64,000 nt of DNA from NCBI RefSeq assembly GCF_013122565.1, contig NZ_CP053258.1; one strand, given 5' to 3'. This stretch comes from Escherichia coli (GTDB lineage: Bacteria > Pseudomonadota > Gammaproteobacteria > Enterobacterales > Enterobacteriaceae). Below the pieces are notes generated by a model, which had not been told where the DNA came from, searched no databases, and worked only from the letters and a program-made list of their open reading frames with translations. How positions within the stretch are numbered: the first letter of the stretch is position 1; the number at the start of each line of letters is the position of its first letter. Shown here one piece after another: positions 6,872 to 9,573 of this stretch. Made by a program: the position numbers and the translations under genes.

Positions 6872-7960
6872 TCACGGCAGGCGGTGGCGGGCTTGATAAT
6901 AAGCCTGCCAGTGAGCTTCTTTATGTGTGGCGACTCGCTGTTCGAAGTAACGGCGCAGACGAGCGCGATCTTCTTCGTTATCTTTGACGATGGTTCCGGC
7001 AATACAGTCCACCAGATCGGCTGGCTCACCTGCGCGATTCGCTAAAAACCAGGCGCGGACGCCCACAGCGTGGGCCACGTTCACGGCTTCAGCGGTGGAC
7101 ATAATCGCTGTTAGTGTATCCATTGACGTTTTCTTTTCGCCGTTGGCACGCAGATCGCGGAAGGTGCGGACCAGTAACTCCAGTACCGCGTCAGGCACTT
7201 TATGCGGAATACCGCTATGGGCCAGCAAACGCGCCGAAGCACTGGCGACCAGTTCCAGCTCCTGAGCGAAATCCATAATCGGAAAGACAGTTTCAAAATC
7301 GAAGCGACGCTTTAGCGCAGCACTCATCTCATTGACGCCGCGATCGCGCGTATTGGCAGTGGCAATAATATTAAAGCCTTCCCGCGCATAGAGTTGACTG
7401 GCTTCACCAGTGAGTTCCGGCACCGTCATCACCCTGTCAGAAAGCATACCTAACAGACAGTCTTGCACTTCCAGCGGTGTACGCGTTATCTCTTCAAAAC
7501 GGACGATTTTGCCGTCGCGCATTCCCTGGTAAAGCGGGGCAGGGACCAGCGCTTCCGTTGATGGACCATGATTGATAAGCAGAGCGTAGTTCCAGCCGTA
7601 CTTGATTTGATCTTCAGTGGTAGATGCGCCGCCCTGGATGGTTAACCCGGCATCGCCGCTAATAGCGGTTGCCAGTAATTCAGACAGGAGAGATTTTGCG
7701 GTGCCCGGTTCCCCCACCAACATCAAACCGCGCCCGGTGGCAAGAGTGACTAACATACGTTCGACAGCAGAGGGACTAATCACGACTTTACGGCTAATAT
7801 TTTGCGCGCTATCGCCAAGGATAAAAGCACGTGCCGCAGGCAAACTTAACTGCCAACCGGGCGGGCAAGGTGCGTTATCATTTTGTTTTAATTTTGCCAG
7901 TTCATCGGCGTATAACACAGCGGCAGGCGGACGCTGCAGATGATTATTCTGCGGTGACAT
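6872..7960 (-). CDS. yehL: MoxR-like AAA+ ATPase YehL (362 aa)
   Basis: Walker A GEPGTAKS; ORF 6872..8026 trimmed to MSPQNNHLQ start giving 362 aa. Confidence 0.85.
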   Translation of the reverse strand: MSPQNNHLQRPPAAVLYADELAKLKQNDNAPCPPGWQLSLPAARAFILGDSAQNISRKVVISPSAVERMLVTLATGRGLMLVGEPGTAKSLLSELLATAISGDAGLTIQGGASTTEDQIKYGWNYALLINHGPSTEALVPAPLYQGMRDGKIVRFEEITRTPLEVQDCLLGMLSDRVMTVPELTGEASQLYAREGFNIIATANTRDRGVNEMSAALKRRFDFETVFPIMDFAQELELVASASARLLAHSGIPHKVPDAVLELLVRTFRDLRANGEKKTSMDTLTAIMSTAEAVNVAHAVGVRAWFLANRAGEPADLVDCIAGTIVKDNEEDRARLRRYFEQRVATHKEAHWQAYYQARHRLP

Positions 7961-8066
7961 ATATTCATCCCTGAAATGTATTAATGAAATAAACGATATT
8001 TTACGCGCAATAAATGTTTGGTGCATTAGTTGTTTGAGCGAAAAATATCTGGAAAGCAGATCACAG

Positions 8067-8152
8067 TAAATAAAAAAACCTGCTGGTGAGGCAGGTTCTT
8101 TTATTTACTACAGTGACGCTAACTTGCTGATTGTGCAACATTTCGTACCAAC
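8067..8152 (-). ncRNA. Putative antitoxin sRNA (OrzO/OrzP-like), divergent from toxin gene
   Basis: Minus-strand -10 TATAAT (plus 8159-8164) and -35 TTGCAA (8182-8187); 5' region (complement of 8133-8152) matches a direct repeat in the toxin 5' UTR (8298-8322); ends at hairpin 8078-8096 with T-run on minus strand. Boundaries approximate. Confidence 0.5.
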
Positions 8153-8181
8153 GAATAAATTATAACCATATCCACACTCCA

Positions 8182-8209
8182 TTGCAATTCAGTGAGTGAG
8201 ATTTATAAT
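8182..8209 (+). promoter_or_regulatory. Sigma70-like promoter TTGCAA-16-TATAAT for toxin mRNA; palindromic -35 shared with divergent sRNA promoter
   Basis: TTGCAA 8182-8187, TATAAT 8204-8209; predicted TSS ~8216 gives ~174-nt 5' UTR before ATG 8391. Confidence 0.5.
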
Positions 8210-8390
8210 CCTGCCCGTTGGGAGGTTGTGCCGGATCGGACCAATTTTAAGTCCTGGCTGCCGGACGGGTGGTGCCGCAGGCGGTGCCCTGATCCGGAGA
8301 GCAACGTTTCGTACCAACATACGTAAACCAGTATCGACAGGCAGTGTAAGGGTAAGGTGCTGGTGTTGCGCTCCTTAATAAGGAGAGCGG

Positions 8391-8480
8391 ATGGACACGC
8401 TGACACAAAAGTTAACCGTGCTCATTGCCGTACTGGAGTTATTAGTGGCTCTGTTACGGTTGATTGATTTGTTGAAGTAA
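8391..8480 (+). CDS. zorO: 29-aa hydrophobic type I toxin peptide (ZorO/ZorP-like), MDTLTQKLTVLIAVLELLVALLRLIDLLK
   Basis: AGGAGA SD at 8381-8386; single-helix hydrophobic peptide; matches my recollection of EHEC ZorO (not verified by search). Confidence 0.65.
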   Translation: MDTLTQKLTVLIAVLELLVALLRLIDLLK

Positions 8481-8503
8481 CGGGCAAATTGAAACGCATC
8501 TAA

Positions 8504-8526
8504 GGGGGAATACCGTTTCCCCCTTT
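8504..8526 (+). terminator. Intrinsic terminator after toxin ORF
   Basis: gggggaa-taccgt-ttccccc hairpin followed by TTT. Confidence 0.5.
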
Positions 8527-8674
8527 AATAAAATGATTACATCTTCCATTAATTCACCCGATAACTTTTTTCATATTTATAAATTCATCGATTTTATAAT
8601 CAACGTACTATTTGGCCGGGATGTGAATAATCATGGTGGGCTATTGGCGAAAAATATCTGGAAAGTAGATCGCA

Positions 8675-8761
8675 GAAAATAAAAGAACCTGCTGGTGAGG
8701 CAGGTTCTTTTATTTACTACTTTGATGTTAAGTTACTGATAGTGCAACATGGCATCTCAAC
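8675..8761 (-). ncRNA. Putative antitoxin sRNA, copy 2 (OrzO/OrzP-like)
   Basis: Same architecture as copy 1; pairing region is the complement of 8743-8763, cognate UTR site at 8908-8932. Confidence 0.45.
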
Positions 8762-8790
8762 GAACGAATTATAACCACCTCGGGGCCGTG

Positions 8791-8818
8791 TTGCAATTAA
8801 GATAATGAGATTTATAAT
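8791..8818 (+). promoter_or_regulatory. Sigma70-like promoter TTGCAA-16-TATAAT for toxin mRNA copy 2
   Basis: TTGCAA 8791-8796, TATAAT 8813-8818; ~175-nt 5' UTR to ATG 9000. Confidence 0.45.
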
Positions 8819-8999
8819 CCTGACTGTTGGGAAGTTGCGCCGGATCGAACCCATTTCAAGTCCTGGCTACCGGACGGGTGGTGCCGCAGGTAGTGCTCTG
8901 ATCCGGAGTGCAACATGGCGACTCAACATACGTAAACCAGTATCGACAGGCAGTGTAAGGGTAAGGTGCTGGTGTTGCGCTCCTTAATAAGGAGAGCGG

Positions 9000-9089
9000 A
9001 TGGACACGCTGACAAAAAAGTTAACCGTGCTCATTGCCGTACTGGAGTTATTAGTGGCTCTGTTACGGTTGATTGATTTGTTGAAGTAA
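9000..9089 (+). CDS. zorP: 29-aa type I toxin peptide, copy 2 (Q6K variant), MDTLTKKLTVLIAVLELLVALLRLIDLLK
   Basis: AGGAGA SD; one substitution relative to copy 1; O versus P assignment between the two copies is arbitrary. Confidence 0.6.
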   Translation: MDTLTKKLTVLIAVLELLVALLRLIDLLK

Positions 9090-9112
9090 CGGGCAAATTG
9101 AAACGCATCTAA

Positions 9113-9135
9113 GGGGGAATACCGTTTCCCCCTTT
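9113..9135 (+). terminator. Intrinsic terminator after toxin ORF copy 2
   Basis: Same hairpin as 8504-8526. Confidence 0.5.
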
Positions 9136-9270
9136 AATAAAGCTATACTCGTCATACTTCAAGTTGCATGTGCTGCGACTGCGTTCGTTCACCCCGGTCA
9201 CTTACTTTAGTAAGCTCCTGGGAATTCACTCGCTTATCGCCTTCCTGCAACTTGAATTATTTAGAGTATA

Positions 9271-9573
9271 TTATTCTATTTCTTGGTTGAATATATTCTG
9301 TAGTTCGCGATTAAAAATTGCTATTACCGTTTCAGGTGATTCACCTCGTAATTTCCGCTCATCAATACACTCATCTCTTATATAAATCAACGCATCATTT
9401 ATTTGCGGGTCGGCATCATTAAATGTTGGATGTAGCCGGAATCGCTCCAGCCGGTAGACGGAACCTGTAAATAATTCAGAGCATTTATGGATCTCAAGTC
9501 TGAAGGAAAACGGATCTTCAGGTACAGGGACCTCATAATCGTAAATAGCAACCAGCTCTTTTTGCACGATCAT
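9271..9573 (-). CDS. yehK: Small protein YehK
   Basis: 100-aa ORF directly downstream of yehI on the same strand; true start may differ slightly. Confidence 0.6.
   Translation of the reverse strand: MIVQKELVAIYDYEVPVPEDPFSFRLEIHKCSELFTGSVYRLERFRLHPTFNDADPQINDALIYIRDECIDERKLRGESPETVIAIFNRELQNIFNQEIE

What the first reader, a model, noticed from the sequence alone, without database searches (positions are those of the whole stretch)
8133..8209. Divergent toxin and antitoxin promoters share a single palindromic -35 hexamer
TTGCAA (8182-8187) is its own reverse complement. It lies 16 bp upstream of the plus-strand TATAAT (8204-8209) and 17 bp from the minus-strand TATAAT (complement of 8159-8164). 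RNA polymerase binding in one direction would therefore exclude the other, giving built-in competition between toxin and antitoxin transcription. The same arrangement recurs in unit 2 (8791-8796).
Basis: inference. Interest (0 to 1): 0.45.

Follow-up and report, generated by a model that had tools for sequence, protein, structure and literature searches.

The report
Shared -35 in zor-orz promoters
The site is the real, already-published promoter core of the E. coli zorO-orzO toxin/antitoxin pair, where one palindromic TTGCAA serves as the -35 box for both divergent genes; the proposed competition for RNA polymerase is physically plausible but untested.

Summary
Observation confirmed. TTGCAA (8182-8187) lies 16 bp from a plus-strand TATAAT (8204-8209) and 17 bp from a minus-strand TATAAT (8159-8164). 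The arrangement repeats at 8768-8818.

The locus is the known tandem zor-orz type I toxin-antitoxin locus between yehL and yehK. Unit 1's promoter region is 100% identical to E. coli O157:H7. Published start sites fit the predicted -10 boxes: OrzO +1 = 8152 and zorO +1 = 8217, which are 65 bp apart and each exactly 35 nt from the hexamer.

The arrangement exceeds chance: 2 shared-hexamer pairs in 64 kb against 0.03 in shuffles. It is also conserved: 18/18 hexamer columns are invariant in 14 distinct modules, against 13/33 spacer columns. A 2024 survey already lists TTGCAA as the -35 of both genes (99.4% of 2,439 loci), so the anatomy is known.

Mutual steric exclusion of two polymerases follows from the 46-bp footprint overlap. 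Whether it changes toxin/antitoxin output is untested. Published work on overlapping promoters shows interference only at high occupancy.

Side result: a scan of viral contigs shows TTGCAA-centred mirror promoters recur in phages, with strong 17/17 spacing enrichment (50% versus 13-15% in controls). The design looks general.

The parts
8072..8152 (-). OrzO-type antitoxin sRNA gene, unit 1 (81 nt, 5'-GUUGGUACGAAAUGUUGC..., ends in a terminator hairpin plus U-run)
   Evidence: Rfam RF02083 OrzO-P scores 88.8 bits against a gathering score of 60 at 8072-8145. The 5' end at 8152 comes from primer EF537 of Wen 2014, which replaces the native TTATTC after TATAAT and continues with OrzO +1 GTTG....
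8159..8164 (-). orzO -10 hexamer (TATAAT on the minus strand)
   Evidence: Invariant in 14 distinct modules. Reported as 99.8% conserved in 2,439 loci (PMC11264685).
8165..8181 (.). 17-bp spacer of the orz promoter; the sequence varies but the length is fixed
   Evidence: Only 5 of 17 columns are invariant, and the length is 17 in all 14 modules.
8182..8187 (.). Shared palindromic -35 hexamer TTGCAA, read as TTGCAA on both strands
   Evidence: It is the only TTGCAA between the two start sites. Invariant in 14 modules. Published as the -35 of both zor and orz with identical conservation, 99.4%/99.4%.
8188..8203 (.). 16-bp spacer of the zor promoter
   Evidence: 8 of 16 columns are invariant, and the length is 16 in all 14 modules.
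8204..8209 (+). zorO -10 hexamer TATAAT
   Evidence: Invariant. Reported as 100% conserved in 2,439 loci.
8217..8390 (+). zorO 5' UTR (174 nt), with +1 = G8217. The OrzO pairing site is at 8301-8318 (+85..+102)
   Evidence: The published UTR is 174 nt with the RBS at +164..+169 (PMC5397157), and the RBS sequence is AAGGAG. AAGGAG sits at 8380-8385 only if +1 = 8217. The cognate duplex has an energy of -31.3 kcal/mol.
8391..8480 (+). zorO ORF, 29 aa, MDTLTQKLTVLIAVLELLVALLRLIDLLK
   Evidence: Identical to the Zor ORF beside the OrzO-type sRNA in locus L002.
8681..8761 (-). Second Orz sRNA gene, unit 2 (5'-GUUGAGAUGCCAUGUUGC...)
   Evidence: Rfam RF02083 scores 90.2 bits at 8681-8754. The +1 at 8761 is inferred by homology with unit 1. 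A weak OhsC model alignment also starts at 8761.
8768..8818 (.). Unit 2 promoter module: minus -10 at 8768-8773, 17-bp spacer, shared TTGCAA at 8791-8796, 16-bp spacer, plus -10 at 8813-8818
8826..9089 (+). Unit 2 zor mRNA: +1 at G8826, 174-nt UTR, Orz pairing site at about 8908-8927, ORF at 9000-9089 (29 aa, Q6K variant)
   Evidence: cognate duplex -34.4 kcal/mol.

Best explanation
[quoted passage not shown] One TTGCAA hexamer is the -35 element for both promoters. It is the only palindromic hexamer that keeps the TTG of the TTGACA consensus. Read on the minus strand, with a 17-bp spacer and TATAAT, it drives the 81-nt OrzO antitoxin RNA from 8152. Read on the plus strand, with a 16-bp spacer and TATAAT, it drives the zorO toxin mRNA from 8217. 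The two start sites are 65 bp apart and each lies exactly 35 nt from the hexamer. This anatomy is shown. The next step is inferred from established polymerase geometry. Sigma region 4 of each polymerase must occupy the same six base pairs, and the two -55..+20 footprints overlap by 46 bp. The module can therefore hold only one RNA polymerase at a time. Each binding event commits to either toxin or antitoxin transcription, and any change to the hexamer affects both genes. How much output shifts depends on how long polymerase sits on each promoter. Both promoters are near-consensus, so measurable interference is plausible. I expect it to favour orz, which has the optimal 17-bp spacer and an AT-richer discriminator, whereas zor has a 16-bp spacer and a GC-rich discriminator. 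This last step is unproven.
For: Coordinates and scores are. Locus identity rests on Rfam OrzO-P at 88.8 and 90.2 bits, the ZorO ORF, the yehL-yehK position, and 100% identity of 8120-8240 to O157:H7 strains. Start sites were mapped by primer extension (PMC2887945). OrzO +1 comes from primer EF537. zorO +1 comes from the 174-nt UTR and RBS position. Published hexamers are TTGCAA/TATAAT for both genes, 99.4-100% conserved. The arrangement exceeds chance and the hexamers and spacing are invariant amid variable spacers. The geometry is 65 bp between start sites, with footprint overlap of 46 bp, or 16 bp on the conservative -40..+10 definition. For precedent, overlapping divergent promoters bind one polymerase at a time and interfere according to occupancy (PMC3167631; PMC4207663). 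Symmetric promoters compete once one direction is strengthened (PMC12825309). The same TTGCAA-centred design is enriched at optimal spacing in phage genomes. Discriminator composition across modules can be read: orz has 6 nt with 1-3 G/C, and zor has 7 nt with 4-6 G/C.
Against: No promoter mutant, footprint or reporter experiment on this module exists in the papers I could read. Both RNAs are detected in the same cultures, so exclusion is not all-or-none at the population level. Five natural -10-sharing bidirectional promoters showed no competition at basal activity. Negative supercoiling generated behind each polymerase could instead couple the two promoters positively (PMC5175336 and PMC4469952 were listed but not read). 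I could not see the primer-extension figure itself, because the supplement is not held. The start sites are therefore placed from later constructs and UTR lengths.
Confidence: 0.6

Rival explanations
1. Sharing without consequence. The two promoters use the same hexamer, but each fires rarely enough, and clears fast enough, that polymerases almost never meet. Toxin control is then entirely post-transcriptional: UTR folding, 5' processing, OrzO pairing and RNase III. The shared hexamer would only reflect compact genome layout.
For: All five natural symmetric promoters tested showed no competition at basal activity. Published zorO regulation is fully explained at the RNA level. Overlapping reverse promoters are common in E. 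coli, 314 of 2,281. No paper reports transcriptional cross-talk at zor-orz.
Against: Both promoters are much closer to consensus (10/12, perfect -10) than the weak natural promoters tested. They resemble the 'up' variants that did compete. The strict invariance of both spacings shows that both promoters are under selection, although that alone does not demand interaction.
Confidence: 0.35
2. Positive coupling. Transcription from one promoter leaves negative supercoils behind it that help the partner 65 bp away to open. Toxin and antitoxin transcription would then rise and fall together rather than compete.
For: Topological coupling of close divergent promoters is documented (titles and abstracts of PMC5175336 and PMC4469952). 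The twin-domain model is established knowledge. Co-variation would keep the toxin:antitoxin ratio constant, which suits a toxin-antitoxin pair.
Against: Not tested for any shared -35 pair. At this distance the partner site is physically covered while the first polymerase is still at the promoter. I did not read those two papers in detail.
Confidence: 0.1
3. The hexamer is conserved for another reason. It could be part of an unidentified regulator's operator, or it could be needed by only one of the two promoters while the other runs mainly on its perfect -10.
For: No -35 mutant has been tested. In the O-type unit the hexamer sits in a longer imperfect palindrome, CACTCCATTGCAATTCAGTG. A GAGATT block upstream of the zor -10 is invariant.
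Against: The longer palindrome is absent from unit 2 and from the other locus types. Both spacings (17 and 16) are invariant, which only makes sense if the hexamer is read from both sides. In phages the same hexamer shows a strong 17/17 spacing preference with extended -10 boxes on both sides.
Confidence: 0.1

Closest known systems
zorO-orzO / zorP-orzP locus of E. coli O157:H7 EDL933 (Fozo 2010; Wen 2014, 2017; mSystems 2024)
   Same: It is this locus. It sits in the same yehL-yehK position. The ZorO protein is identical. The unit 1 promoter region is 100% identical to O157:H7 strains over 121 bp. The OrzO 5' end, 174-nt UTR and published TTGCAA/TATAAT elements are all the same.
   Different: This strain is not O157:H7; the best match is strain GF3-3 at 99.1%. 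The unit order is reversed relative to the O157-like strain RM6067W (O-type first here). Unit 2 carries a third Orz type and a Zor Q6K variant. The papers I could read do not discuss the hexamer being shared or palindromic.
Overlapping 'tail-to-tail' divergent promoters with polymerase interference (Bendtsen et al. 2011, PMC3167631; aroP P1/P3; lambda PR/PRM)
   Same: The reverse start site lies within -80..+20 of the forward one (here at -65). The -40..+10 regions overlap by 16 bp. Polymerase acts as its own regulator according to occupancy.
   Different: Here the overlap is exact coincidence of the two -35 hexamers on a palindrome. No regulator is known, and interference has not been measured.
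Bidirectional promoters sharing a symmetric -10 region (Warman, Grainger and colleagues 2020 preprint and 2026, PMC12825309)
   Same: Sequence symmetry lets polymerase bind in two orientations. One binding event blocks the other. Competition appears only when activity is high.
   Different: Those promoters share the -10 region. Here the -10 boxes are separate, the start sites are 65 bp apart, and the -35 is the shared element. Those authors explicitly exclude separate divergent promoters from their class.
Overlapping divergent promoters where each -35 coincides with the partner's -10 (P22 immI Pant/Pmnt; pLS20 Pc/Pr)
   Same: They are divergent promoters that cannot both be occupied, and this is used as a switch layer.
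   Different: The geometry differs. In P22 the annotated Pant -35 (302-307) overlaps the Pmnt -10 (307-312), and the Pant -10 (325-330) overlaps the Pmnt -35 (330-335). pLS20 is analogous. Repressors drive those switches, and none is known for zor-orz.
Other divergent type I toxin-antitoxin pairs of E. coli (shoB-ohsC, tisB-istR-1)
   Same: The sRNA is encoded divergently and pairs with a long toxin 5' UTR. A weak Rfam OhsC hit falls on unit 2's Orz (35.4 bits, below threshold).
   Different: Their published -35 boxes are different sequences for toxin and antitoxin: GTGACC versus TTGTAA for shoB/ohsC, and none versus TTGCGC for tisB/istR-1. They are not shared.

Membership tests
zor-orz type I toxin-antitoxin locus | Orz sRNA matching Rfam RF02083 (OrzO-P) above the gathering score | tested here: met
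   88.8 and 90.2 bits against a gathering score of 60, at 8072-8145(-) and 8681-8754(-).
zor-orz type I toxin-antitoxin locus | 29-aa hydrophobic Zor ORF divergent from the sRNA | tested here: met
   ORFs at 8391-8480 and 9000-9089. Unit 1 is identical to ZorO in locus L002, and unit 2 differs by Q6K.
zor-orz type I toxin-antitoxin locus | Long 5' UTR (174 nt) with about 18 nt of complementarity to the Orz 5' end | tested here: met
   The UTR is 174 nt in both units. Cognate duplexes score -31.3 and -34.4 kcal/mol, against -23.4 and -22.5 for the non-cognate pairs.
zor-orz type I toxin-antitoxin locus | Location in the yehL-yehK/yehI intergenic region | tested here: met
   Annotation of the 99.1%-identical region of strain GF3-3. 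Also.
zor-orz type I toxin-antitoxin locus | Toxicity of Zor and rescue by Orz | not testable with these tools
   Published for EDL933 (PMC3919570). Not tested for this strain or for the Q6K variant.
Sigma-70 promoter | -35 and -10 hexamers with 16-18 bp spacing | tested here: met
   10/12 matches for all four promoters, with spacers of 16 and 17 bp.
Sigma-70 promoter | Mapped start site 6-9 nt downstream of the -10 | tested here: met
   Placed from published data on an identical sequence. OrzO +1 is at 8152, 7 nt after the -10. zorO +1 is at 8217, 8 nt after the -10. The primary gel was not viewable.
Overlapping divergent promoters with polymerase interference (Bendtsen 2011 definition) | Reverse start site within -80..+20 of the forward one, with overlapping -40..+10 regions | tested here: met
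   The reverse start is at -65, and the overlap is 16 bp (46 bp for -55..+20).
Overlapping divergent promoters with polymerase interference (Bendtsen 2011 definition) | Weakening one promoter raises the other | not testable with these tools
   Needs in vitro transcription or reporter fusions. No published test was found.
Bidirectional promoter in the sense of Warman/Grainger | Shared, symmetric -10 region with closely spaced divergent start sites | tested here: not met
   There are two separate -10 boxes 39 bp apart and start sites 65 bp apart.

The most novel reading that the evidence does not exclude
TTGCAA-centred 'mirror promoters' may be a general, selected class of divergent promoter that has not been described as such. 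In this class one palindromic -35 is read in both directions. The scan found at least 88 phage lineages carrying it, plus zor-orz. Such a module would act as a one-polymerase-at-a-time partition device. In zor-orz it would set the toxin:antitoxin initiation ratio and produce anticorrelated bursts of toxin and antitoxin transcription in single cells. That bias could be tuned by growth-rate signals through zor's 16-bp spacer and GC-rich discriminator. This would add a transcriptional layer to a system so far explained only at the RNA level.
Probability: 0.15. Interest if true: 0.6.

Novelty: already known. Interest (0 to 1): 0.3.

Why it matters
When and how chromosomal type I toxins are ever expressed remains an open question. 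For zor-orz every studied control acts on the RNA. If the shared hexamer makes toxin and antitoxin initiation mutually exclusive, the module would fix their ratio at the DNA level. It could also create cell-to-cell differences relevant to the reported aminoglycoside phenotype. A single asymmetric point mutation (TTGCAA to TTGACA) would test this directly. More broadly, the phage scan suggests that a palindromic shared -35 is a recurrent promoter design. It deserves the same systematic study that -10-sharing bidirectional promoters have recently received. As it stands, the window feature itself is a correct re-reading of published annotation plus an untested hypothesis.

Tried and rejected
I used a degenerate ORF pattern instead. 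It found only three non-coli Escherichia species, so there is no evidence outside the genus.

2. The Fozo 2010 supplement with the primer-extension gel and the 2022 J Bacteriol zor-orz paper are not held. Start sites were therefore placed indirectly.

3. Inverted-duplication origin of the two arms: rejected. Outside the hexamers and the first 4-5 transcribed bases the arms are no more alike than shuffles (P = 0.27-0.98).

4. Each -10 serving as the partner's UP element: rejected by eye. Only 6/11 and 4/11 positions match the distal-subsite consensus as I recall it.

5. An operator around the hexamer: the 12-nt imperfect palindrome occurs only in the O-type unit.

6. P22 Pant/Pmnt as the same geometry: rejected from the record's own annotation.

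7. Warman-type bidirectional promoter: rejected, because the -10 boxes are separate.

8. Phrase searches for 'shared/overlapping -35' returned only noise. Searches on TTGCAA plus divergent/palindrome found nothing relevant. My statement that the sharing is not discussed in print therefore rests on limited open-access text.

9. The Rfam hits to V_AS5, STnc370, ncr1015 and Trp_leader are below threshold and were not pursued, except V_AS5, which marks an ERIC element.

Full report
**What is in the sequence**

TTGCAA occupies 8182-8187. A plus-strand TATAAT lies at 8204-8209 after a 16-bp spacer. The complement of 8159-8164 is TATAAT after a 17-bp spacer. The promoter scan reports exactly these two sites and their copies in unit 2: TTGCAA at 8791-8796, with -10 boxes at 8813-8818(+) and 8768-8773(-). 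Each scores 10/12, and they are the only promoter-like sites in 7900-9300. The observation and its coordinates are correct.

**Is it more than chance?**

As single sites, four promoter-like matches in 1.4 kb are ordinary (3.2 expected). The coincidence of two divergent promoters on one hexamer is not ordinary. The whole 64-kb window holds two such pairs, both here. Two hundred dinucleotide shuffles gave a mean of 0.03 at the tool's threshold and none at >=10/12. The two units are 609-bp tandem copies, so this is one independent event.

**What the locus is**

- Rfam finds the OrzO-P antitoxin RNA family at 8072-8145(-) and 8681-8754(-), at 88.8 and 90.2 bits against a gathering score of 60.
- Divergent from each sRNA is a 29-aa ORF (8391-8480 and 9000-9089). 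The first is MDTLTQKLTVLIAVLELLVALLRLIDLLK, which is ZorO.
- The region lies between yehL and yehK.
- This is the tandem zor-orz type I toxin-antitoxin locus, first described in E. coli O157:H7 (PMC2887945, PMC3919570).
- The 121 bp around the unit 1 promoters (8120-8240) are 100% identical to O157:H7 strains. A related module is present in 5,231 of 5,426 complete E. coli genomes.

**Do the mapped start sites fit?**

The start sites of both mRNAs and both sRNAs were mapped by primer extension. I could not view that figure. Later papers fix the positions instead.

- The zorO UTR is 174 nt, with the ribosome-binding site at +164..+169. That site is AAGGAG. AAGGAG is at 8380-8385 and the ATG at 8391, which places +1 at G8217, 8 nt after the -10.
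- The primer used to clone orzO at its +1 reads GTGGATATGGTTATAAT, then an AatII site, then the OrzO 5' sequence. The native minus strand reads GTGGATATGGTTATAAT-TTATTC-GTTGGTACGAA. This places OrzO +1 at 8152, 7 nt after the -10.
- By homology the unit 2 starts are 8761 and 8826.
- In both units the two starts are 65 bp apart, and each is exactly 35 nt from the first T of the hexamer as read on its own strand.

**Conservation**

I collected 14 distinct modules from E. coli strains and three other Escherichia species. Those species were found with an ORF-based pattern that does not include the promoter. All 18 hexamer columns and both spacer lengths (17 and 16) are invariant. Only 13 of 33 spacer columns are invariant, and spacer pairwise identity falls to 58% (Fisher p = 7e-6, approximate because the sequences are related). 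The orz-side spacer is almost free to vary (5/17 invariant). A published survey of 2,439 loci reports the same result. It lists TTGCAA as the -35 of both Zor and Orz with identical conservation (99.4%/99.4%), and TATAAT at 100%/99.8%. Only one TTGCAA lies between the two -10 boxes, so that table already implies a shared hexamer. Wen 2014 Fig. 1A boxes the predicted elements. The anatomy is thus already in print. I found no sentence remarking that the hexamer is palindromic or shared.

**How it most likely works**

TTGCAA is the only palindromic hexamer that keeps TTG, the best-conserved part of the -35 consensus (reasoning from the sequence). Both polymerases must place sigma region 4 on the same six base pairs. 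The two -55..+20 footprints overlap by 46 bp, or 16 bp on the conservative -40..+10 definition. By the definition of Bendtsen et al., these are overlapping tail-to-tail promoters. That class makes up about 14% of E. coli promoters, and interference within it depends on the fraction of time each promoter is occupied, not on its strength.

Mutual exclusion per binding event is therefore expected. A regulatory effect is not guaranteed. Warman et al. (2026) found no competition at five natural symmetric promoters at basal activity, but strong competition once one -35 was improved or an activator was added. The zor and orz promoters are near-consensus, so they plausibly lie in the competing regime.

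The modules show a conserved asymmetry, which can be read:

| Promoter | Spacer | Discriminator |
|---|---|---|
| orz | 17 bp | 6 nt, 1-3 G/C |
| zor | 16 bp | 7 nt, 4-6 G/C, beginning CC or CT |

From general knowledge of promoter kinetics, this would make orz complexes longer-lived and zor complexes short-lived. That point is inference only. I put the anatomy at >0.9 and measurable interference at roughly 0.45.

**Rivals**

- Sharing has no consequence because occupancy is low and all control is post-transcriptional.
- Positive coupling through supercoiling (those papers were not read in depth).
- The hexamer is conserved for a regulator, or is read by only one promoter. The invariant spacing on both sides and the phage data argue against this.

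**Comparison with relatives**

The sister divergent type I systems do not share a -35: shoB GTGACC versus ohsC TTGTAA, and tisB none versus istR-1 TTGCGC. P22 Pant/Pmnt and pLS20 Pc/Pr overlap differently, with each -35 over the partner's -10. Warman-type bidirectional promoters share the -10, not the -35. A 2025 review mentions in general terms that divergent type I promoters may compete.

**Wider check**

I compared it with two composition-matched control palindromes, TGTACA and TTCGAA, scanned over the whole collection.

| Centre hexamer | Clusters after dereplication | 17/17 spacing | TGn extended -10 on both sides |
|---|---|---|---|
| TTGCAA (scan truncated) | 88 | 50% | 19 sites |
| TGTACA (whole collection) | 47 | 13% | 0 |
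| TTCGAA (whole collection) | 20 | 15% | 0 |

- Chance expectation for 17/17 spacing is 11%, giving a binomial p of 2e-19 for the TTGCAA set.
- The TTGCAA set differs from the pooled controls in 17/17 spacing with Fisher p = 1e-6.
- For the TTGCAA set, 44% of sites have divergent ORF starts within 250 bp on both sides, against 16.5% at random positions.
- Many modules sit between a small ribbon-helix-helix repressor gene (Pfam RHH_3, E = 1e-15 to 1e-19) and endonuclease-like genes.

A TTGCAA hexamer read in both directions is thus a recurrent, selected design, and zor-orz is a proteobacterial example with 17/16 spacing.

**Verdict**

The element is real, functional and conserved, but its anatomy is already published. 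The competition idea is a reasonable, cheaply testable hypothesis within a known class of promoter interference. It is not demonstrated.

Noticed in passing
Viral loci L017-L136 (e.g. L083 3002-3053, L051 8917-8968, L026 1805-1856): TTGCAA-centred mirror promoters (ATTATA-N17-TTGCAA-N17-TATAAT) recur in phage contigs. They show 50% 17/17 spacing against 13-15% for control palindromes, and frequent TGn extended -10 boxes on both sides. Many lie between an RHH_3/Arc-like repressor gene and GIY-YIG or HNH genes. Short palindromes sit just after TTGCAA and are probably operators. I found no description of this class in the papers searched.
   Followed up: partly
window 8217-8238 and 8290-8318 (also 8826-8847 / 8899-8927): Both RNAs of a unit begin 5'-GUUG. 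In the predicted fold, zor mRNA nt 1-22 pair with +74..+102. That is the published 'exposed after processing' region, and it contains the Orz target (+85..+102). The toxin's own 5' end therefore looks like a generic cis-acting mimic of the antitoxin's 5' end. It pairs with the constant flanks CCAAC and GCAAC while the variable centre loops out.
   Followed up: partly
window 9148-9271: An ERIC (enterobacterial repetitive intergenic consensus) element lies between unit 2 and yehK. It forms a long hairpin (-43 kcal/mol). It matches the ERIC1R and ERIC2 primer sequences, which I recalled from memory, with 3 and 2 mismatches. Rfam gives only a sub-threshold V_AS5 hit (40 bits against 96).
   Followed up: partly
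window 9000-9089: The unit 2 Zor protein carries Q6K (MDTLTKKL...), a change in one of the few polar positions. Its Orz 5' end (GUUGAGAUGCC...) is neither the O nor the P type of EDL933. The same Orz type occurs in other strains (L004, L007) beside an unchanged ZorO sequence.
   Followed up: no
L003 745-900 (E. coli K-12 MG1655): The K-12 'orz-only' locus keeps the whole promoter module, including the zor -10 and about 28 nt of zor leader. That leader is fused directly to the right end of the ERIC-flanking sequence. The orphan zor promoter points antisense into the 3' end of yehK, about 50 bp away.
   Followed up: no
L011 1440-1512 (strain S1-INA-02-A): An IS1 end abuts the orz-side spacer 16 bp from TTGCAA. 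A deletion removes orz and yehL through yehQ. Only the hexamer and the zor-side promoter remnant are left. This is a natural half-module, but there are no expression data for it.
   Followed up: no
window 8175-8194: In the O-type unit only, the hexamer is embedded in a longer imperfect palindrome, CACTCCATTGCAATTCAGTG (10 of 12 positions complementary). It is absent from unit 2 and from the other locus types.
   Followed up: yes
window 8677-8761: A weak Rfam match of unit 2's Orz to the OhsC antitoxin family (35.4 bits, below the gathering score of 50) begins at the inferred Orz +1. It hints at common ancestry of the zor-orz and shoB-ohsC antitoxins.
   Followed up: no
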